A stretch of DNA of 64,000 nt. It comes from Carcharhinus amblyrhynchos. Its lineage: Eukaryota. The stretch's first letter is position 1; every line of letters starts with the position of its first letter. The stretch covers positions 31,930,001 through 31,994,000 of the forward strand of contig OZ336882.1 of assembly GCA_965287045.1 (NCBI GenBank), given 5' to 3'. This document shows positions 1,272 through 63,582 of this stretch, piece after piece. The notes below the pieces were generated by a model, which saw nothing but the letters and a program-made list of their open reading frames with translations, did no database searches and was not told where the DNA came from. A program made the position numbers and the translations under genes.

Positions 1272-1998
1272 TGGAGATGCCAGTGTTGGACCGGGGTAAA
1301 CACAGTAAGAAGTCTCACAACACCAGGTTAAAGTCTCACATGAGAACACCGTCCACCAGGTATACAGTGCACACTCTTGCAACTTGGCCAATGTTGTCTA
1401 CCTGATACGCAGGAAAGGATGTCCCCAGGCATGGTACATTGGGGAGGCTATGCAGACGCTATGACAACAGATGAATGAACACCACTCGACAATCAACAGG
1501 CAAGAGCGTTCTCTTCCTGTTGGGGAATGCTTCAGCGGTCACAGGCATTCGGCCTCTGAACTTCAGGTAAGCGTTCTCCAAGGCAGCCTTCACGACACAT
1601 GACAACGCAGAGTCGCTGAGCAGAGACTGATAGCCAAGCTCCGCACACTTGAGGACGGCCTCAACCGGGATCTTGGGTTCATGTCACACTATCTGTAACC
1701 CCCATGACTTCCCTGGACTTGCAAAATCTCACTATCTGTCCTGTCTAGACAATACACATCTCTTTAACCTGTGCTTAATGCTCTCTCCACTCACATTCTC
1801 TGTACCTTTAACACTTGAGTACCTGTAAAGACTCGCATTCCAATCATTATTTTGTAAATTGAGTTTGTGTCTTTATATGCCCTGTGAATAGAACTCCCAC
1901 TCACCTGACGAAGAGGCAGCAAGCGCTCTGAAAGCTAATGGCTTTTGTTACCAAATAAACCTGTTGGACTTTAATCTGGTGTTGTGAGACTTCTTACT
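1272..1998 (+). mobile_element. Penelope-like element fragment: GIY-YIG remnant, pLTR and inverted terminal piece
   Basis: 1360-1698 reads roughly SCNLANVVYLIR..WYIGEAMQTL..MNEHHS..VAEQRLIAKLRTLEDGLNRDLGFMSHYL*. Inverted termini at 1304-1335 and 1967-1998. TSD atcaaatggt (1262-1271 and 1999-2008). Confidence 0.9.
1901..1941 (+). ncRNA. Hammerhead-like motif in a Penelope pLTR
   Basis: tcacctgacgaagaggcagcaagcgctctgaaagctaatgg; helix II can pair as AGAG/CUCU. Confidence 0.55.
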
Positions 1999-10507: not shown

Positions 10508-13500
10508 ATAAGAACATAAGAACATAAGAAATAGGAGCAGGAGTAGGCCATCTGGCCCTTCGAGCCTGCCCCGCCATTCAATAAGATCATGGCTGATCTG
10601 TCGTGGCTCAGTTCCACTTTCCCGCCCTCTCCCCATAACCCTTAATCCCCTCTCTTATCAAAAACCCATCAACCCGCTTCTTAAAAATATTTAGCGAGGC
10701 AGCCTCCACCACTTCAACGGGCAGAGAATTCCAGAGATTCACCACCCTTTGAGTGAAGAAGTTCCTCCTCAACTCCGTTCTGAACTGCCCCCCCTTTATC
10801 TTGAGGCTGTGCCCCCTAGTCCTACTGTCTTTTTTGAGCGGGAAGAGTCTTTCCACCTCTATCCTATCCATCCCATTCATCATCTTATACGTCTCAATGA
10901 GATCTCCCCTCATTCTTCTAAACTCTAACGAGTACAAGCCTAGTTTATTCAGCCTCTCCTCATAGCTCAACCCCCTCAACTCTGGTATCAGCCTAGTAAA
11001 CCTCCTCTGCACTCCCTCCAAGGCCAAAATATCCTTGCGCAGGTGCGGCGCCCAAAACTGCACACAGTACTCCAGCTGCGGCCTCACCAATGCCCTATAC
11101 AGCTGCAGCAAGACCTCCCTACTTTTATATTCAATCCCCCTCGCTATGAAGGCCAGCATCCCATTCGCCTTCCTGACCACCTGCTGCACCTGCAGGCTGG
11201 GTTTTTGCGACTCATGCACAAGGACCCCGAGGTCCCTCTGCACCGTCGCCTGCTGCAGTTTTTCGCCACGTAAGTAATAGTCCTTCCTACCATTCTTCCT
11301 ACCAAAGTGGACCACCTCACACTTGCCAACATTAAATTCCATTTGCCATTTCCTGGCCCATTCACCCAGCCTATCTAGATCCTTCTGCAGACTCTCCACA
11401 CCCTCCGCACAATTTGCCTTTCCCCCAATCTTGGTGTCATCAGCAAATTTCGACACCCTACACTCGGTTCCCTCCTCCAGATCATCTATATAAATGGTAA
11501 ATAGCTGAGGCCCCAGCACCGACCCCTGGGGCACCCCACTAGTCACCAACCGCCAATCCGAATAGCACCCATTGACCCCCACTCTCTGCCTCCTATTTGA
11601 CAACCAATCCTCTATCCACGCTAACACCCTACCCCCAACTCCATGTCCTCTGACCTTCTGCAGTAACCTCTTGTGAGGTACCTTATCAAACGCCTTCTGA
11701 AAATCCAGAAAGACCACATCCACCGGCTCTCCTCTATCCACCGCCCTAGACACATCCTCATAGAACTCCAGTAAATTTGTCAGACACGACTTCCCTTTAA
11801 TGAAACCGTGTTGCGTCTGCCCTATCAAGCAATTCCCTTCAAGATGCCTCGCAATTTCCTCCTTAATGACGGATTCTAACATTTTACCTACCACAGACGT
11901 TAAACTAACCGGCCTGTAATTCCCCGCCTTTTGCCTGGCACCCTTCTTAAACAACGGCGTAACATTAGCCTTTTTCCAATCCCCCGGCACTTCCCCGGAA
12001 TCCAGCGACGTCTGGAAAATAACCACCAAGGCATCCACTATCACCTCCGCCATTTCTTTCAGAACCCTCGGATGCATTCCATCCGGTCCTGGGGACTTGT
12101 CCACAATCAGCCCCTCCAGTCTGTCGCGCACCACCTCTCTAGTAACAGTAATGTCATTAAGACCCTCCAGTCCTACCACCTTTCCATCGCTAACACCCGG
12201 CAAATTATTCACGTCCTCCTCCGTGAAGACAGAAACAAAAAAGTTATTCAAGACCTCAGCCATATCCCCATCCCCTACCACTAGGTCCCCTTTCTCATCC
12301 GCTAAGGGACCAACGTTCACCCTAGCCAGCCTCTTCCTTTTTATATATTTATAAAAACTCTTGCTATCCTTTTTTATATTAAGTGCTAGCCCAGCTTCAT
12401 AGCTTCTTCTACCCTCCTTTATCAACTTTTTTGTCAATCTTTGTTGACATTTAAACCTTTCCCAATCCTCTTCTCGCCCACTGCTCTTAGCTACTCTAAA
12501 TTCCTCCGCTTTTAATTTAACACTTTCCTTCACCTCCTTCGTTATCCACGGCTTATTACCTCTCTTCCTACTGTCCTTTTTAACCATCGGAATAAATTTC
12601 TGCTGAGCACCAAGAAAGATCTCCTTAAAGATCCTCCACTGCTCCTCAGCAGACCTACCTTCCAACGCGCTCCCCCAGTCCACATTCGCCAATTCTTCTC
12701 TCATCCTACCATACTCCCCTCTATTCAAACAAAGGACACGTGTCCGGGAACCCACTTTCTCCTCCTCCATCTGCAACAGAAACTCCACCATACAATGATC
12801 ACTCTCTCCAAGAGGATCCTTCACCTCAAGGTCCCTAATTCTACCCGCCTCATTACATAGCACCAGATCCAAGATAGCTCGCTCCCTCGTCGGCTCCAAC
12901 ACACACTGTTCCAGGAAACTATCCCGGCAGCATTCCAAGAACTCCTCCTCGAGCCCACCTCGTCCAACATGGGTCGACCAATCAATATGCAGATTGAAAT
13001 CCCCCATAACTACTGCCGTCCCATTCCTGCACGCCGCACTTATTTGCGCGTTAACAGCCCGCCCCACCTCCAGATCATTATTCGGGGGCCTATAGACGAC
13101 ACCCACCAGCGTCTTCCTCCCTTTGCTGTTCCTAATCTCCACCCACAACGATTCCACTTTCTGCTCTTTGGCTCCGATATCATCCCTTGCTACCACCTTG
13201 ATGCTGTCCTTAATCAGCAGAGCTACGCCACCCCCTCTTTCCTCCTGCCTATCCTTCCTAAACACTTGATAGCCCTGTACATTCATCTCCCAGTCCCTGT
13301 CACCTTGCAGCCACGTCTCTGTAATGGCCACCAGATCGTATCCATTTGTGTCGATCTGCGCCACCAGCTCATCCACTTTATTCCGAATGCTTCGTGCATT
13401 CAGATAAAGCGCTTTCATCCCAGCCTTCTTCTGGACCCTATTTGCCGTAACGCCACCACTTGGGACATCCTCAGCCTCTTCCCTTACCTGTACCCTATCC

Positions 13501-13556
13501 TTAACTGTAGACCTCCTAACATCACCTACCCTCGCACCCTCCCCCCCCCTAATTAG
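10508..13556 (-). mobile_element. Young CR1 LINE, 5'-truncated near the ORF1/ORF2 boundary, with intact ORF2
   Basis: Contains the 936-aa ORF, a 3' UTR and a (TTCTTATG)n tail at 10508-10530. Both junctions are defined by the empty-site copy at 14238-14383. Confidence 0.95.
10608..13418 (-). CDS. CR1 ORF2: APE endonuclease plus reverse transcriptase
   Basis: YLNARS, ITETW, GDFN, LDLV and SDH endonuclease motifs; KSPGPDG, NYRPVSLTS, FLDFQKAFDKV, GVPQGSVLGP and FADDTK RT motifs; no stops. The frame is also open for 48 codons upstream of the ATG, to 13562. Confidence 0.96.
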   Translation of the reverse strand: MKALYLNARSIRNKVDELVAQIDTNGYDLVAITETWLQGDRDWEMNVQGYQVFRKDRQEERGGGVALLIKDSIKVVARDDIGAKEQKVESLWVEIRNSKGRKTLVGVVYRPPNNDLEVGRAVNAQISAACRNGTAVVMGDFNLHIDWSTHVGRGGLEEEFLECCRDSFLEQCVLEPTRERAILDLVLCNEAGRIRDLEVKDPLGESDHCMVEFLLQMEEEKVGSRTRVLCLNRGEYGRMREELANVDWGSALEGRSAEEQWRIFKEIFLGAQQKFIPMVKKDSRKRGNKPWITKEVKESVKLKAEEFRVAKSSGREEDWERFKCQQRLTKKLIKEGRRSYEAGLALNIKKDSKSFYKYIKRKRLARVNVGPLADEKGDLVVGDGDMAEVLNNFFVSVFTEEDVNNLPGVSDGKVVGLEGLNDITVTREVVRDRLEGLIVDKSPGPDGMHPRVLKEMAEVIVDALVVIFQTSLDSGEVPGDWKKANVTPLFKKGARQKAGNYRPVSLTSVVGKMLESVIKEEIARHLEGNCLIGQTQHGFIKGKSCLTNLLEFYEDVSRAVDRGEPVDVVFLDFQKAFDKVPHKRLLQKVRGHGVGGRVLAWIEDWLSNRRQRVGVNGCYSDWRLVTSGVPQGSVLGPQLFTIYIDDLEEGTECRVSKFADDTKIGGKANCAEGVESLQKDLDRLGEWARKWQMEFNVGKCEVVHFGRKNGRKDYYLRGEKLQQATVQRDLGVLVHESQKPSLQVQQVVRKANGMLAFIARGIEYKSREVLLQLYRALVRPQLEYCVQFWAPHLRKDILALEGVQRRFTRLIPELRGLSYEERLNKLGLYSLEFRRMRGDLIETYKMMNGMDRIEVERLFPLKKDSRTRGHSLKIKGGQFRTELRRNFFTQRVVNLWNSLPVEVVEAASLNIFKKRVDGFLIREGIKGYGERAGKWN

Positions 13557-14237
13557 TCCTGCCTAACATTGCTGGGTAAGTAATCAAGTAAATAAGTATG
13601 AACTGTCCGAAGTCTCCAAGTCTATTTCAGAGTTGGAGACTCTTTCCGAGGATTCTGGGGAGCAGGGGAATGGTCCATTGAAAGTTCAAACTTCACGGGC
13701 AATTTCCACAGAGTCAATGCATTGGAATTTCCAAGGAGTCCCAATGTGCATTTGGGAGATACATCCAGTATCCCACTGTCCTGAGACTGGGGGGAAGATC
13801 CAGACCTCTTAACTTACCATTATTGTTTTGCCAAAATACGCTTCTTGTTGAAAAAAACTTCCATCAGAACACACATGCAAAGAGCAGGTAGTAAATTTGC
13901 TATGGTTAAGTATTCTTTTTCAGAAATGCATTAGCTTTCAGAGAAGGCGATCCCTGACGAGCGAGCGAGGAAGCCAGTGAGTGAGTGAGAGAGAGAGATG
14001 GATGACAAATCTATTTAGCTAATACATTATTGTTTTACAGAATCAAGAAGTAATATTTTTGCATGAAAATAGTGGGGACAAAGGTCTGGAGGTGACACAA
14101 GTTGAATGTGAAAAAGACAAAAGTGATTTTGGGAGTCATGGCAGATTTACAAAGGATGGTTCTATGCAATCATCACTGTTGTAAAATATTTGTTGAAGTG
14201 AAGCCACACAAGCAATTTCGGGGTATGATTGAATTAA

Positions 14238-57840: not shown

Positions 57841-58347
57841 CTGGGAAAGAAAGTTATTTACGTGAATTATAAAACAACTTTTGTTAATGAATTGCATTTT
57901 CTTGGCTCGGGTTTTTCTAGTTTCTGAGCTCTGAACAGGAAGGGACAATTGTGCACTGACTCAAATCTCTTAGGAAAGTAGTTCAACCTCGTCCTCCCTT
58001 TTTATAATTTGAATCATTCATCATCAATGAAAACAAAATACAGACAAAGGAAGGATATTTGGCCATCAAAGCTGTTGTTTTTATGGGCTGTGTAGAATCC
58101 ATCAATAATTTCCATTCCTATTTCTATCCCACTTGACTATTTCAAGTTATTGGCAAGAATCCATTTAATATAATAAATGTTCATTTTTTTTAACCTCTTT
58201 TTATCACTATCATCATAATTTCTTCTATCAGCTAGTTTTTTGTTTTTCAATAGTTAAGAATCTCAATGCCTATCATGCTCTCAACTCGCTGAAGAATAGG
58301 AGAAATCACCAGCTTTGGTGGGATTTTGTTTCTATCTGTACCTTTAT

Positions 58348-58605
58348 CGGCACAGTGGCAAGCACTGCTGCCTCACAGTGTCAGGGACCAGGGTTCAATT
58401 CCGACCTTGGGTCAGTGTGCGTGGACTTTGCACATTCTTCCTGTGTCTGCACAGGTTTCCTCCCATAGTACAAAAATGTGCAGGTTTGGTTGATTGGCCA
58501 TGCTAAATTGACCGTGTCAGCAGGATTAGCAGGTAAATATGAGGGGTTACGGGAATAGGGCCAGGGTGGAATTGTGGTCGGTTCTGCACTGTAGGGATTA
58601 TATGA
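58348..58605 (+). mobile_element. HE1-type V-SINE (internally deleted)
   Basis: ggcacagtggcaagcactgctgcctcacagtgtcagggaccagggttcaattcc plus V domain. Confidence 0.85.
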
Positions 58606-59106
58606 TTTATATTCCTTGTTACAGCTCCACTGAAATCTGTTCAGGAAATAATTTTGTTTGACGTGCAAGACCCTGCTACAGATTCAGGACCTTCCCCCTC
58701 TTAACTCATCAGCCCTTGTTTCTATAGGAAAAATAATAAAAATTCTATTAACATTTACCTCCTACATTTCACTGTCTACCTATGTAACTATTTAGTTCTC
58801 CATAGCAATGGTTTTTCCAGCTAGGGTCTGGCTTTCTATTATCTGTATTAGTTCACTCCACTTAACCCAATCTTTTATTGGTACCAATTAAACTTTTGCT
58901 GTTGACCTATTCACCATTTCAAGAACCAGTCATAACACCTCGATAAAGGTTTCTACCACAGAACTGTCTGCTGAGGTTTTACTTACAAGGCTCATACTCA
59001 TTGGATACAAGATTTATTTATGTGGCTTCACGGAACACCCAATACTCAGTACTATCTTGTCTTCTTCCTTACTTAACTATACTCACCTTCAGGAGATGGA
59101 CTGAAC

Positions 59107-59302
59107 CAGACCTGCAAGAGACACATTTCACCAGGATAAGATAAAACAGAGCAGGGGGACGAGGCCAGCACTCAGCTTTGGGGGTGGACAGCCGCAGACC
59201 TGTGAGATACACGCTTCACCAGGGCAGGGTAAGAGAGTGCAGGGACTAGGCCTTCACTCATCTTTGGGCAGCAGAGAGCATCAGACCTGCAAGGGACTTC
59301 AC
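59107..59302 (+). repeat. ~88-bp tandem repeat (2.2 units)
   Basis: cagacctg at 59107, 59195 and 59282, with conserved ttcaccagg, gcaggg..aggcc..cactca.ctttggg. Confidence 0.75.
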
Positions 59303-60675
59303 CCAACCGTCAAACAGCGCGCTGAGTTTGAAAAAAAAATCAAAAAGTGATGCCATATGAATGCAGAAGCTGATTGGTTTGTGAGTAGCTGATATTAGGG
59401 ACTGTGTTTCAATAGCTGAAGCTAAAAGAAACTCATTTATTGGGAGAAGTATTATTTATTAGCTATATTTAGATTTGTATAGTCTAAGAGGGTTGTGAAT
59501 CTATGGAACTCACTGTCGCAGAATGCAGTGGATGCAGAATCAATCAACGGATTCAAAGAGGTAGATAAATACTTGATCAAAAGCAGGATAAAGGGCTATG
59601 GGGAAAAGGCAGGGAAGTGGAGTTAGGATGAGATGGAGATCAGCTATGACCATATAGAATAGCGGAGCAGGCTTGAACTGATGAATTGCCTACTCTCGCT
59701 CCTAATTCCTATGTTCCTATGTTAATTTTACATTTAAGACATGTCAGGTAAGGACAGCTATGTGGAATGTGTGACTTGTCATTTGTGGTGAGACCTAGCT
59801 GACCACATGTGCAGAAGTGCTCCCAGCTGCAGAAACTGGAGCTCCGGGTTTCAGAGCTTGAGCAGCAACTGGAGACCCTGTGGCGCATACGTGAGGCTGA
59901 ATGTTATGTGCTTAGCATGTTTAGAAGGTGATCACACCATAGCTCAAATGACTAGAGGGCAGAAGGGAATGGGTGGCCAACAGGCAGTCCAGGAGAAAAC
60001 AGGCAGGTAGTGTAGTTGTCCCCTGGGGTCCCACTCACTAATCAGTTTTCCATTTTGTAAGCTGACGAGGGCACTGGTACCTCAAAGCAGTGCAGTTAGA
60101 ACCAAGTGACAGGGAATTCATTAGTCAGGGAGAAAATAGGAGTTTCTGCAACCAAAGATATAACCCAGGATGGTGTGTTGCCTCACTGGTGCCAGGGTCA
60201 GGGACGTCACTAAATGGCTGCAGGGCATCCTGAAAGGGGTGAGTGATGAGTTAGAGGTCGTAGTATATGTTGGTACCAACTGCAATAAAGAGAGAAGATA
60301 TCTTGGAAGATGTCTTCAAAAGAGGCTTTGTGGGTAGAATTTAGGAATATAAAGGTGGCAGCCACATTGCTTGGAGCATATTATAAATCCCCAAAGAATC
60401 AGCGGGAAATAGAGGAGCAGATATGTAATCATTCACTGAGGTGTGAGTAATTATACTAAGGGATTTCAACTTCCCCAACATAAATTGGGATTGTCATAGC
60501 GTAAAGAGTTAAAAGGGCCAGATTTCTTGCAGTGTTTCCAGGGAAGATTTTGTATTAATATGTAGAAGGCCCAGCAAGGAATGGCAAAATCCTCTATCTG
60601 CTTCTGGTTAATGAACACAGTAAGAAGTCTTACAACAGCAGGTTAAAGTCCAACAGATTTATTTGGTAGCAAATG

Positions 60676-60716
60676 CCACTAGCTTTCAGAGTGCTTGCTG
60701 CTCCTTCGTCAGGTGA
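60676..60716 (-). ncRNA. Hammerhead-like motif, inverted pLTR arm
   Basis: Minus strand reads tcacctgacgaaggagcagcaagcactctgaaagctagtgg; helix II is weakened. Confidence 0.55.
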
Positions 60717-61027
60717 GTGGGAGATCTTTTCACAAACAGGGCATATAAAGGCACAAACTCAATTTACAAAATAATGATTGAAATGCGAGTCTTTACAGCT
60801 AATCAAGTTTTAAAGTCTTTGCAGTGAAGAATCGAGCCCCTGCTGTGTTACTGTAAAGTATTGTCTGGAGAAAGTACACATCTCTTTAACTTGTGCTTAA
60901 TGCTCTCTCTACTTACATTGTCTGTACCTTTAAGACTTGATTAGCTGCAAAAGACTTGCATTTCAATCATTATTTTGTAAATTGAGTTTGTGCCTTTATA
61001 TGCCCTGTTTGTGAAAGGATCTCCTAC

Positions 61028-61068
61028 TCACCTGACGAAGGAGCAGCAAGCGCTCCGAAAGCTAGTGG
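61028..61068 (+). ncRNA. Minimal type I hammerhead ribozyme-like motif in a Penelope pLTR
   Basis: UCAC-CUGACGA-A-GGAGC(agcaagc)GCUCC-GAAA-GCUA-GUGG: core, 5-bp helix II, palindromic AGCU helix III and UCAC/GUGG helix I. Confidence 0.7.
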
Positions 61069-62400
61069 CATTTGCTACCAAATAAACCTGCTGAACTTAA
61101 ACTTAGTGTTGGAAGACACCTTACTGTGTTTACCCCAGTCCAACGCCGGCATCTCCACATCTGGGGAATGAAGCCAGACGATTGTTCAACGTGGCAGTGA
61201 GGGAGCACTTCAGCAATGCGACCACATCACACTATGGTTCAAATTTGTTATGGACGAGGAGAAAGATGGCCCGCAAAAGACAGCTTTGGATTTTATTGAA
61301 ATAAGGCAGGATCTGGTGAAAGTTAACTAGGAACAACTCCTTGTGCTAAAGTCTACAGTGAAGCAGTAGGGGACACTTAAGAAGGAACTGGGGAGAATGC
61401 AGGTCCAACATGTCCCCTATCGGGGTAAATGTAGGAGCAATAAGTTCAGGAAATCCTGGATGTCTAGGACAATTCAGGACTGGATCAGGAAGAATAGAAA
61501 GAGTTTTAACAAGACCAAAGGGAGCAATTCCAGCTGTGACCCTACAGGAATATAGGAAGTGCAAGGACGAACTTACGAAAGCAATTGAAAGAACAAAAAG
61601 GGGGCATAAAAAAACCTTATGAACAAGATTATGAAGAATCCTAAAAAATTCTATAAATACATTAAGGGGAAGTTGTTAACCAGGGAAACAGTAGGGCCCA
61701 ATGAAGACCAAGGGGGCAATCTGTGTGAAGCCGTAGAACATTGGAATACTTCTTCACTCAAGAAAAGGAGACTGTAGGTACAGAATTCAGGAAACAGGAC
61801 TGGAACTTGCACAGTTTGACATAGGAAACAAGGAATGAGGAGGTATTGGCGGCTCTGACTGGCTTAAAAAGAATGGACAAATCTCCAGATCTGGATGATT
61901 TGCATTCCAGACTACTGTGGGAGGCAAGGCAAGATATTGCAGAAGTTCTTAATACCTCTCAGATCATGGGGGAAGTACCAGCGGGATCAGGGAAGGCTCA
62001 TGTGATGCCACTTTTTAAGGGTGGTGGTAGAGATGAACCAGGAAATTACAGACTGGTGAGTCTCATGTTATTGGTAGGGAAACTATTGGAGAAAATTCTG
62101 AAGGAGAGAATTAATCTACACTTAGAAAGGCATGGGATAGATAGCATGGTTTTGTCCAGAGGTCACGTCTAACAAATTTGATGGAATTTTTCAAAAATGT
62201 GATCAAATGTGTGGATGAGAGAAGTTCAGTTCATGTAGTTTATATGGATTTTAGCAAAGTCTTTGACAAGGTCCCACATGGAGGCTGATTGAGAAGATTT
62301 AAGCACATGGAATTCAGGGAAACTTGGCAAGATGGTTCCGAAACTGGCTTAGTAATAAAACACAAAGGATGGTGGTGGAAGGCTGTTTGAGTTACCGGAG

Positions 62401-62526
62401 TAAGAAGTCTGACAACACCAGGTTTAAGTCCAACCAATTTAAAATTTAAATCGGTTGGACTTAAACCTGGTGTTGTCAGACTTCTTACTGTGTTTACCCC
62501 AGTCCAACGCCGGCATCTCTACATCA
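62401..62526. mobile_element. Minimal Penelope-like hairpin insertion
   Basis: Perfect 36-bp inverted arms at 62400-62435 and 62453-62488, a 38-nt tail, and a 13-bp TSD tgagttaccggag (62388-62400 and 62527-62539). Confidence 0.92.
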
Positions 62527-63582
62527 TGAGTTACCGGAGGCCAGTATTCAGCGAAGTACCACAAGATTCAGTGCTGGGACCTTTATTGTTTATTATATAC
62601 ATAAATGATATAGATGATAATGAGGAGGGAACGATAAGCAAGTTTGAAAATGACACTGAGATTGGTAGGGTGCTTAATAGTGAAGAAGGTGGTTGTAGGT
62701 TACAGGAAGATATAGATGGGCAGAGCTGTGGCTGATGGTATTTAACCCTAAGTGCAAGGTGATGCACTTTGGAAGAAGTAACAAGACAAGGGATTATTTA
62801 ATGAATGGCAGGACACTAGAAATTCAGAGGAACAGATGGATCATGGGGTGCTTATTCACAGATTCTTGAAGGCAGCACAGCAGGTCAATGGGATGGTTAA
62901 GAAGGAATATGGGACACTTGCTTTTATCAGTCATGGCATAGAATACAAGAGCAAGAATATAATGTTGAAGCTGTACAAGAATATTGGTTAGGCCACAGCT
63001 GGAGTAGTGTGTGCAGTTTTGGTCACCTCATTACAGGAATAATGAGATTGCACTAGACGGGGTAGATGGGATACACCAGGATGTTGCCTGGGGTGGAGCA
63101 TTCAAGCTATAAGGAGAGACTGGATAGGCCAGGATTGTTTTCTTTAGAGCAGAGAATGATTCAGGTATATAAGAATGTGATGGATATGGACTGGGTGAAT
63201 AGGAAGCAGCTATTTCTCTTGGTCAAGGAGTCAATCACAAGGGGGCATAGTTTTGGGTTAGGAATAGGAGTTTTAGAAGAGATTTGAGAAAACCTTTTTC
63301 AATCAGAGGGTGGTGGAAATCTGGAATGCACTGCCTGGGAAGGTAGAGAAGGCCCAAAACGTAACAACATTTAAAAAGTATTTGGAATATCATTTGAAAC
63401 ATCAAAACATTCAAGGATATGGAACGAGTATTGGAAAATGGCATTAGCGCAACTTTGGCTGTAGTTATTGTCAGAGCAGACTTCCTGGGCCAAAGGGCCT
63501 TTTCTGCACTGTACTCCTCCACCTTCTGTAAATTATGCAGCACTGAACCACAATATCCCTTTGTAAATTCCAGCAGACCCAC

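What the first reader, a model, noticed from the sequence alone, without database searches (positions are those of the whole stretch)
60614..61160. Palindromic Penelope insertion carrying two minimal hammerhead ribozyme motifs inside a GALNT10 intron
Seen: two ~200-bp inverted pLTR arms. The plus arm holds UCAC-CUGACGA-A-GGAGC(7-nt loop)GCUCC-GAAA-GCUA^GUGG at 61028-61068. This gives the catalytic core, an extra bulged A, a perfect helix II, a palindromic AGCU in place of helix III and a 4-bp helix I; predicted cleavage is after A61064. The minus arm copy (60676-60716) is sense to the GALNT10 pre-mRNA. Known: Penelope-like elements carry minimal hammerheads in their pLTRs that are thought to cleave as dimers (Cervera and de la Pena 2014). 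Inference: in the inverted layout each transcript carries one sense ribozyme plus its antisense strand, so the fold-back may sequester it and protect the host intron.
Basis: partly seen in the sequence, partly recalled or inferred. Interest (0 to 1): 0.7.

Follow-up and report, generated by a model that had tools for sequence, protein, structure and literature searches.

The report
Decayed mirror-image Penelope stub with hammerheads
This is an ordinary, decaying scar of a Penelope-type jumping gene in an intron: its two mirror-image ends each carry a small self-cutting-RNA motif already known from such elements, and the copy facing the host gene is mutated and predicted to be inactive.

Summary
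60614-61161 is a 5'-truncated, head-to-head insertion of an abundant Neptune-type Penelope-like retroelement (at least 3811 candidates) in a 5.7-kb GALNT10 intron. It has a probable 9-12-bp target duplication and the family's 31-nt tail at one end only. The hammerhead is real at family level: across 111 copies the core is invariant between two subfamilies, and helix II shows compensatory changes. It is predicted not to fold even without its partner arm. Fold-back is predicted (helix probability 0.000), but it looks like a by-product. The inverted, one-tailed layout is the family's common product (17 of 29; 15 of 20) and is published, including for Penelope-like elements without hammerheads. 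In 1.35 Mb of intronic DNA, hammerhead arms showed no strand bias (30 sense, 35 antisense), and one intact sense motif lacked a partner. That test is weak: 8 of 9 intact sense motifs did have partners. Cleavage and expression were not tested. The scan has reported the same kind of insertion before elsewhere in this genome.

The parts
60605..60615 (+). Probable 5' copy of the target-site duplication (TGGTTAATGAA; last two bases overlap the element start)
   Evidence: Sequence: 9 of 11 identical to 61162-61172. No empty site found, so inferred.
60614..60815 (-). Inverted, 5'-truncated pLTR arm without tail; sense to the host pre-mRNA
   Evidence: 93-95% identical to same-subfamily copies
60676..60716 (-). 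Host-sense minimal type I hammerhead motif; core letters intact, helix II damaged by two CpG transitions (G10.1.U11.1; C.A)
   Evidence: (helix II probability 0.000-0.002 even without the other arm)
60816..60861 (.). 46-nt filler at the inversion junction, origin unknown
   Evidence: No match in four long family copies, in 238 held sequences or in a genome search (self only; that search can miss)
60862..61161 (+). Direct arm: 3' UTR/pLTR end of the element with tail; antisense to the host
   Evidence: 88-92% identical to family copies
61028..61068 (+). Intact minimal type I hammerhead motif (4-bp helix I, extra A after A9, 5-bp helix II, palindromic AGCU, N17 = A61064); antisense to GALNT10
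61131..61161 (+). 31-nt PLE tail, present at this end only; in full-length relatives the ORF's ATG follows directly
61162..61172 (+). Probable 3' copy of the target-site duplication (TGGGGAATGAA)
   Evidence: Sequence
57841..63582 (-). Host intron (5742 nt) of the GALNT10-type gene; insertion 2.4 kb from the donor and 2.8 kb from the acceptor
   Evidence: gene identity

Best explanation
This is a truncated, head-to-head insertion of a Neptune-type Penelope-like retroelement in a GALNT10 intron; its two hammerhead motifs are likely passive relics, and the host-sense one is mutated and predicted to be inactive. The element's RT/GIY-YIG protein likely cut the target, left a 9-12-bp duplication and copied the RNA's pLTR end twice, once from each cut end. 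The two copies would start at the two initiation sites that lie one tail-length apart. Both copies stopped early (about 200 and 300 nt) and were joined back to back through a short filler (inferred from PMC11167929 and the family layout). Since then the insertion has likely decayed neutrally, mostly at CpG. In the parent element the hammerhead is under structural constraint and likely cleaves only as a dimer or with the element's protein (inferred from published relatives). In the host pre-mRNA the antisense arm is transcribed first and a roughly 200-bp hairpin is predicted to bury the single sense motif. That burial is likely a by-product of the insertion mechanism, not a selected protection.
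For: FAMILY. 3811 first-look candidates, 40 scored; the 39 other than the window are 89-92% identical. Relatives hold an uninterrupted 893-aa ORF in 9 of 20 stretches fetched, with RVT_1 E 1.4e-9 and GIY-YIG E 1.2e-4, and a CX4CxxC linker before the nuclease. LAYOUT. 17 of 29 distinct insertions show an outward inverted arm in the DNA held (1.5 kb each side for most), and in all 17 only one outer end has the tail. 15 of 20 ORF-selected loci show the same (counted by hand). This layout is described in PMC3846280 and PMC8557442 (passages). RIBOZYME. In 111 copies cut out by their flanks (96 distinct), helix II pair 2 is GC 68/AU 23 and pair 3 is AU 47/GC 42; covariation score 0.321 against 0.208 shuffled (0 of 500) and at most 0.098 when slid. 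13 of 13 core columns share the majority base between the older and younger groups, against 25 of 54 other columns (Fisher p 0.0003). N17 is A, U or C in 108 of 111. DECAY. Fully intact motifs are 14 of 53 in the older group and 43 of 58 in the younger; losses cluster at CpG positions G8 (15), C11.1 (14) and G12 (12). THIS LOCUS. Host-sense helix II probability is 0.000 for the arm alone, 0.60 for the plus arm alone, 0.000 for both within the whole insertion; G.U wobbles split 6:6 between strands. INTRONS. In 1,346,000 bases inside six CUB-repeat genes: 65 hammerhead-bearing arms, 30 sense and 35 antisense (p 0.62); unpartnered 11 and 15 (p 0.56). One intact sense motif has no inverted partner and forms helices I and II in its minimum-energy fold. 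AGE. A contig from one sample of another organism crosses the left junction (records 18 and 26, 16 differences in 475 nt).
Against: No cleavage assay and no RNA data. In the intronic sample 8 of 9 strictly intact sense motifs did have an opposite-strand partner within 6 kb, as the protection idea predicts. However, 4 of 4 intact antisense motifs did too, and age confounds both. The sample is small, gene strand is inferred from CUB hits, and nested genes are not excluded. Covariation counts are sequences, not independent events, and the older group was picked by similarity to a query that includes the motif. The core letters of the host-sense motif are intact, and the effect of G10.1.U11.1 is predicted, not measured. 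The TSD has 2 mismatches and no empty site was found. 10 of the 17 arm mismatches cluster in 61087-61119, which uniform neutral decay does not explain. The 46-nt filler is unexplained.
Confidence: 0.88

Rival explanations
1. Protective lock: inverted insertions are tolerated in introns because the fold-back silences an otherwise harmful sense ribozyme, so selection favours them.
For: Fold-back is predicted to abolish helices I and II on both strands, and in this layout the antisense arm is always transcribed first (sequence logic). 8 of 9 intact sense intronic motifs have a partner. Retrozyme homologues are reported as depleted from introns in Xenopus (bioRxiv 10.64898/2026.07.22.740005, Results part 1). 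An intronic ribozyme can lower host expression (PMC10919898 abstract passage; a different ribozyme class).
Against: No strand bias among 65 arms or among 26 unpartnered arms, and one intact sense motif is unpartnered. Monomers showed no cleavage (PMC4209133) and the anole motif needed the element's protein (PMC11167929). Inversion also occurs without any hammerhead (62399-62525; Naiads). The host-sense helix II here is already broken, and there is no wobble bias. Intron cleavage need not block splicing (PMC4410947 passage citing Dye 2006).
Confidence: 0.06
2. The insertion has been co-opted by the host as a long intronic RNA hairpin (editing substrate, small-RNA source or splicing modulator), independent of cleavage.
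For: A roughly 200-bp stem, about -370 kcal/mol for the 661-nt host-strand fold. The insertion is fixed long enough to be shared with another organism.
Against: Thousands of similar hairpins exist. It lies 2.4-2.8 kb from the splice sites, with no wobble bias and 9% arm divergence. Incidental editing would not be function.
Confidence: 0.04
3. A non-autonomous mini-element or retrozyme that moves as a unit.
For: Short, no ORF, two hammerheads, probable TSD. Retrozymes are proposed to derive from PLE pLTRs.
Against: The junction with its filler was found only once in the genome search (can miss). Other copies break at different points. The motifs are on opposite strands, not in head-to-tail tandem.
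Confidence: 0.02

Closest known systems
Minimal hammerheads (min-HHR) in pLTRs of metazoan Penelope-like elements (Cervera and de la Pena 2014, PMC4209133; read parts 1-2 of 4)
   Same: Type I core, 4-bp helix I, extra nucleotide between 9 and 10.1, conserved G10.1-C11.1, palindromic 15.2-16.2, no helix III; mostly dispersed truncated copies; pairs 100-700 bp apart on opposite strands already noted; high variability within a genome.
   Different: The parts read name fishes, coelacanth, Xenopus and reptiles, not cartilaginous fishes (supplements not opened). Helix II is 5 bp here. The host-sense copy has lost G10.1-C11.1.
EN+ PLE insertions with inverted pLTR, tail and TSD (Adineta Pen2a/Pen2, PMC3846280; general scheme in PMC8557442; passages only)
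   Same: Head-to-head inverted 5'-truncated arm, 31-bp tail at one end only, 8-10-bp TSD.
   Different: Both arms are truncated inside the 3' UTR so no ORF remains, and the junction holds a 46-nt filler instead of an overlap or palindrome.
Poseidon_Ac of the green anole (PMC11167929; read parts 1-2 of 4)
   Same: pLTR hammerhead and tail; the published two-site internal initiation and cutting/extension of both strands would explain the one-tailed inverted layout.
   Different: This family has the CX4CxxC linker (Neptune/Nematis type), which Poseidon lacks, and its ATG follows the tail rather than starting at helix II.
Animal non-LTR retrozymes (bioRxiv 10.64898/2026.07.22.740005; abstract, passages, Results part 1; supplements closed)
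   Same: PLE-derived, non-coding, hammerhead-bearing.
   Different: Retrozymes are tandem head-to-tail repeats; this is a single inverted insertion with a unique junction.
Domesticated intronic hammerheads of amniotes, e.g. RECK (PMC6155905, passage)
   Same: Type I hammerhead in an intron, sense to the host.
   Different: Those are highly conserved single motifs; this one is a decaying member of a high-copy family and is damaged.

Membership tests
EN+ Penelope-like element (family of origin) | Single ORF with RT and C-terminal GIY-YIG endonuclease | tested here: met
   893-aa ORF in relatives; RVT_1 and GIY-YIG. Those pLTRs are about 70% identical to the window arm; same-subfamily copies (about 90%) carry broken remains of the same ORF. 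The insertion itself has no ORF.
EN+ Penelope-like element (family of origin) | [quoted passage not shown] | tested here: met
   Seen by eye in the C-terminus printed; definition from PMC8557442. My two regular expressions for it were mis-spaced and found nothing.
EN+ Penelope-like element (family of origin) | pLTRs in tandem or inverted arrangement with a 30-40-bp tail at one end | tested here: met
EN+ Penelope-like element (family of origin) | Short target-site duplication | tested here: inconclusive
   9 of 11 match at this locus, no empty site; a clean 10-bp duplication flanks the sister insertion at 1272-1998
Neptune/Nematis clades | CX2-5CxxC motif in the RT-EN linker (absent in Penelope/Poseidon) | tested here: met
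   Residues 755-763 of the L083 ORF; definition
Neptune/Nematis clades | RT phylogeny separating Neptune from Nematis | not tested
   No reference PLE RTs held; Neptune is preferred because it is the one reported in vertebrates
Minimal type I hammerhead, plus copy 61028-61068 | CUGANGA and GAAA core, NUH site, G10.1-C11.1, helices I and II | tested here: met
   family covariation
Minimal type I hammerhead, host-sense copy 60676-60716 | Watson-Crick G10.1-C11.1 and a stable helix II | tested here: not met
   G.U and C.A; -0.8 kcal/mol; probability at most 0.002
Minimal type I hammerhead | Site-specific self-cleavage (as dimer or protein-assisted) | not testable with these tools
   Needs an in vitro assay; cofolding two copies is not a test of the double-hammerhead fold
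Rfam hammerhead families | Match to a curated covariance model | tested here: not met
   No hammerhead family among 15 matches at E up to 10; expected if the models need helix III (inference)
Non-LTR retrozyme | Head-to-tail tandem units each with a same-strand hammerhead | tested here: not met
   Motifs on opposite strands; unique junction

The most novel reading that the evidence does not exclude
The head-to-head layout made by Penelope transposition is a built-in antisense lock: because the antisense arm is always transcribed first, it silences the element's hammerhead in host pre-mRNAs, and this is what lets tens of thousands of ribozyme-bearing copies accumulate in introns, with selection removing young intact sense copies that lack the lock.
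Probability: 0.06. Interest if true: 0.55.

Novelty: new member of a known kind. Interest (0 to 1): 0.12.

Why it matters
This locus matters little: it is one of thousands of decaying stubs, and both its layout and its ribozyme motif are published. The family is more useful than the locus. It has young members with uninterrupted ORFs and natural compensatory variants of helix II, which give ready material for the open question of what PLE minimal hammerheads do. If the lock idea held genome-wide, it would link a transposition by-product to host tolerance of intronic ribozymes.

Tried and rejected
Rfam scan: no hammerhead; only hairpin look-alikes below gathering score. Pfam Ricin_B_lectin search of the genome did not report the window's exons; short-motif scans and PDB did. 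One search used a wrong frame. The SAP30 search found only the C5 gene, so no neighbour was confirmed for the window's gene in the 40 kb held downstream. Sequencing runs: no RNA holder listed, which is no evidence on expression; host expression, cleavage ends and editing remain untested. Contigs of four runs: X8 and X9 (one sample) bridge the left junction; X6 and X7 list no bridging piece, which proves nothing. Empty-site reconstruction from related flank copies found no collinear pair (the same script failed part-way). Filler origin not found. Cofolding gave no usable test of the dimer. In one search one of 9 elements (L102, interrupted 3' pLTR) spoiled the flank means and was dropped. Literature: three searches found no paper on a shark PLE hammerhead or on antisense sequestration by inverted pLTRs; a fourth was on intron cleavage. 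Supplements of PMC4209133 were not opened and those of the bioRxiv paper are closed; either may list cartilaginous-fish motifs. Lunse et al. 2017 was seen only as a reference title and is not held. Rejected readings: chance motif (family-wide covariation), mobile mini-element (unique junction), Poseidon clade (linker motif present), GALNTL6 as host (paralogue on C5).

Full report
Observation. The two arms exist: 60614-60815 (inverted) and its partner 60928-61130, with 17 mismatches and 1 gap in 203 columns. Rfam has no hammerhead match here.

Host gene. Motif scans found GalNAc-transferase exons on the minus strand on both sides. Two exons match PDB 2d7i, GalNAc-T10. The insertion sits in intron 57841-63582, 2.4 kb from the donor and 2.8 kb from the acceptor. 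The nearest paralogue lies on C5; the two equivalent exons are 87 kb apart there against 7 kb here, and it is followed by a more distant GALNT and a SAP30-family gene. That order is the one I recall for GALNTL6, so the window's gene is GALNT10 by elimination. The minus motif is the one in the pre-mRNA.

Anatomy. Mapped on long same-subfamily copies, the insertion is: inverted arm 60614-60815, unmatched filler 60816-60861, direct arm 60862-61161 ending in a 31-nt tail. The flanks read TGGTTAATGAA and TGGGGAATGAA, a probable 9-12-bp duplication; no empty site was found. A contig of another organism (one sample, runs X8 and X9) runs 32 letters across the left junction with 16 differences in 475 nt, so the insertion is likely fixed and older than that split.

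Family. A genome search gave 3811 candidates, 40 scored. One copy continues from the tail straight into an ATG. Searching with that ORF start led to a younger subfamily (pLTR about 70% identical to the window arm); 9 of 20 fetched stretches hold an uninterrupted 893-aa ORF. It carries RT and GIY-YIG and a CX4CxxC linker, which by PMC8557442 (passages) marks Neptune/Nematis and excludes Penelope/Poseidon. No tree was built. The genome looks like a cartilaginous fish from its repeats (recalled, not tested).

Layout is routine. 17 of 29 distinct insertions show an outward inverted arm in the DNA held, always with the tail on one outer end only; 15 of 20 ORF-selected loci show the same (hand count). 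The window itself has a second inverted stub too short to include the hammerhead (62399-62525) and a third insertion whose inverted arm also lacks it (1272-1998). Inverted pLTR, one-sided 31-bp tail and short TSD are described in PMC3846280 and PMC8557442 (passages), including for Naiads, which lack canonical hammerheads. PMC11167929 (parts 1-2 of 4) shows a PLE protein cutting and extending both strands and starting reverse transcription at two sites that bound the tail. Applying that here is inference.

The ribozyme is real at family level. I cut out 111 copies by their flanks, not by the motif, and aligned them. Helix II pairs 2 and 3 swap between G-C and A-U (68/23 and 42/47 of 96 distinct rows). 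The covariation score is 0.321 against 0.208 for shuffles (0 of 500) and at most 0.098 for slid structures; relatedness inflates such counts. All 13 core columns keep the same majority base between older and younger groups, against 25 of 54 others. The cleavage-site base is A, U or C in 108 of 111. Intact motifs fall from 43 of 58 (younger) to 14 of 53 (older), mostly at CpG, which is what neutral decay after insertion gives. All these features match PMC4209133 (parts 1-2 of 4), which also reports opposite-strand pairs 100-700 bp apart and no cleavage by monomers.

Does fold-back protect the host? Folding predicts complete burial: helix I and II probabilities are 0.000 on both strands of the whole insertion. 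But the host-sense arm alone also gives 0.000, against 0.60 for helix II of the plus arm alone, so there is little left to silence today. Of 12 transition mismatches between the arms, 6 are G.U on the host strand and 6 on the other, so there is no sign of selection for the host-strand stem. For a wider test I fetched 1,346,000 bases inside six CUB-repeat genes of known strand and scanned them with a profile. There were 104 arms (50 sense, 54 antisense); 65 carried a motif (30, 35; p 0.62) and 26 of those had no opposite-strand partner within 6 kb (11, 15; p 0.56). One strictly intact sense motif has no partner and forms helices I and II in its predicted fold. Against my reading, 8 of 9 intact sense motifs are partnered; but so are 4 of 4 intact antisense motifs, and young copies tend to be both intact and inverted. 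The test is too small to exclude a modest effect. Literature cuts both ways: retrozyme homologues are depleted from Xenopus introns (bioRxiv 10.64898/2026.07.22.740005, Results part 1) and an intronic ribozyme can affect its host (PMC10919898, abstract passage), while intron cleavage need not prevent splicing (PMC4410947, passage).

Not tested. Cleavage, expression and editing. No RNA holder was listed.

Verdict. A new member of a known kind: a dead, inverted Neptune-type PLE stub with two known-type minimal hammerheads, the host-facing one damaged. Earlier notes of this scan describe the same kind of insertion elsewhere in this genome; they are not independent support, but one gave the lead to PMC3846280. 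Interest 0.12.

Noticed in passing
L083, L084, L085, L087, L092, L094, L096, L100 (3' pLTRs): Among 8 young elements whose 893-aa ORFs differ by only 0.6-1.6% (229 nt upstream of the core: mean 1.7%), the helix II/loop 2 segment takes 4 different, still-pairing forms; 19 forms occur among 58 young copies. A sharply local, structure-preserving hypervariability, echoing the unexplained variability noted in PMC4209133.
   Followed up: partly
L083, L085, L101: The 5' and 3' pLTR of one insertion carry different helix II variants; the inverted arm matches the 3' pLTR in L083 and L101 but the 5' pLTR in L085. This may help tell which template each arm is copied from.
   Followed up: partly
window 61087-61119: 10 of the 17 arm mismatches fall in these 33 nt; by eye against the copy at 1742-1998, most are on the right arm. 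A local mutation cluster, unexplained.
   Followed up: no
window 60816-60861: 46-nt filler at the inversion junction with no other match found.
   Followed up: partly
window 1272-1998: Second family insertion: short inverted arm with tail, broken GIY-YIG C-terminus, pLTR with a damaged hammerhead at about 1903, and a clean 10-bp TSD.
   Followed up: partly
window 62399-62525: Minimal inverted stub (45-bp arms plus tail) of the younger type in the same intron, too short to hold the hammerhead.
   Followed up: partly
L223:1253-1423 (G000:C8:2609253-2609423, minus strand): Intact young-type hammerhead, sense to a CUB-repeat gene, with no inverted arm within 6 kb; a good natural test case for cleavage in a host intron.
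   Followed up: partly
window 10608-13562 (minus): Uninterrupted 984-codon frame similar to LINE ORF2 proteins (E 8.8e-23 to LINE-1 ORF2); likely a young non-LTR retrotransposon.
   Followed up: partly
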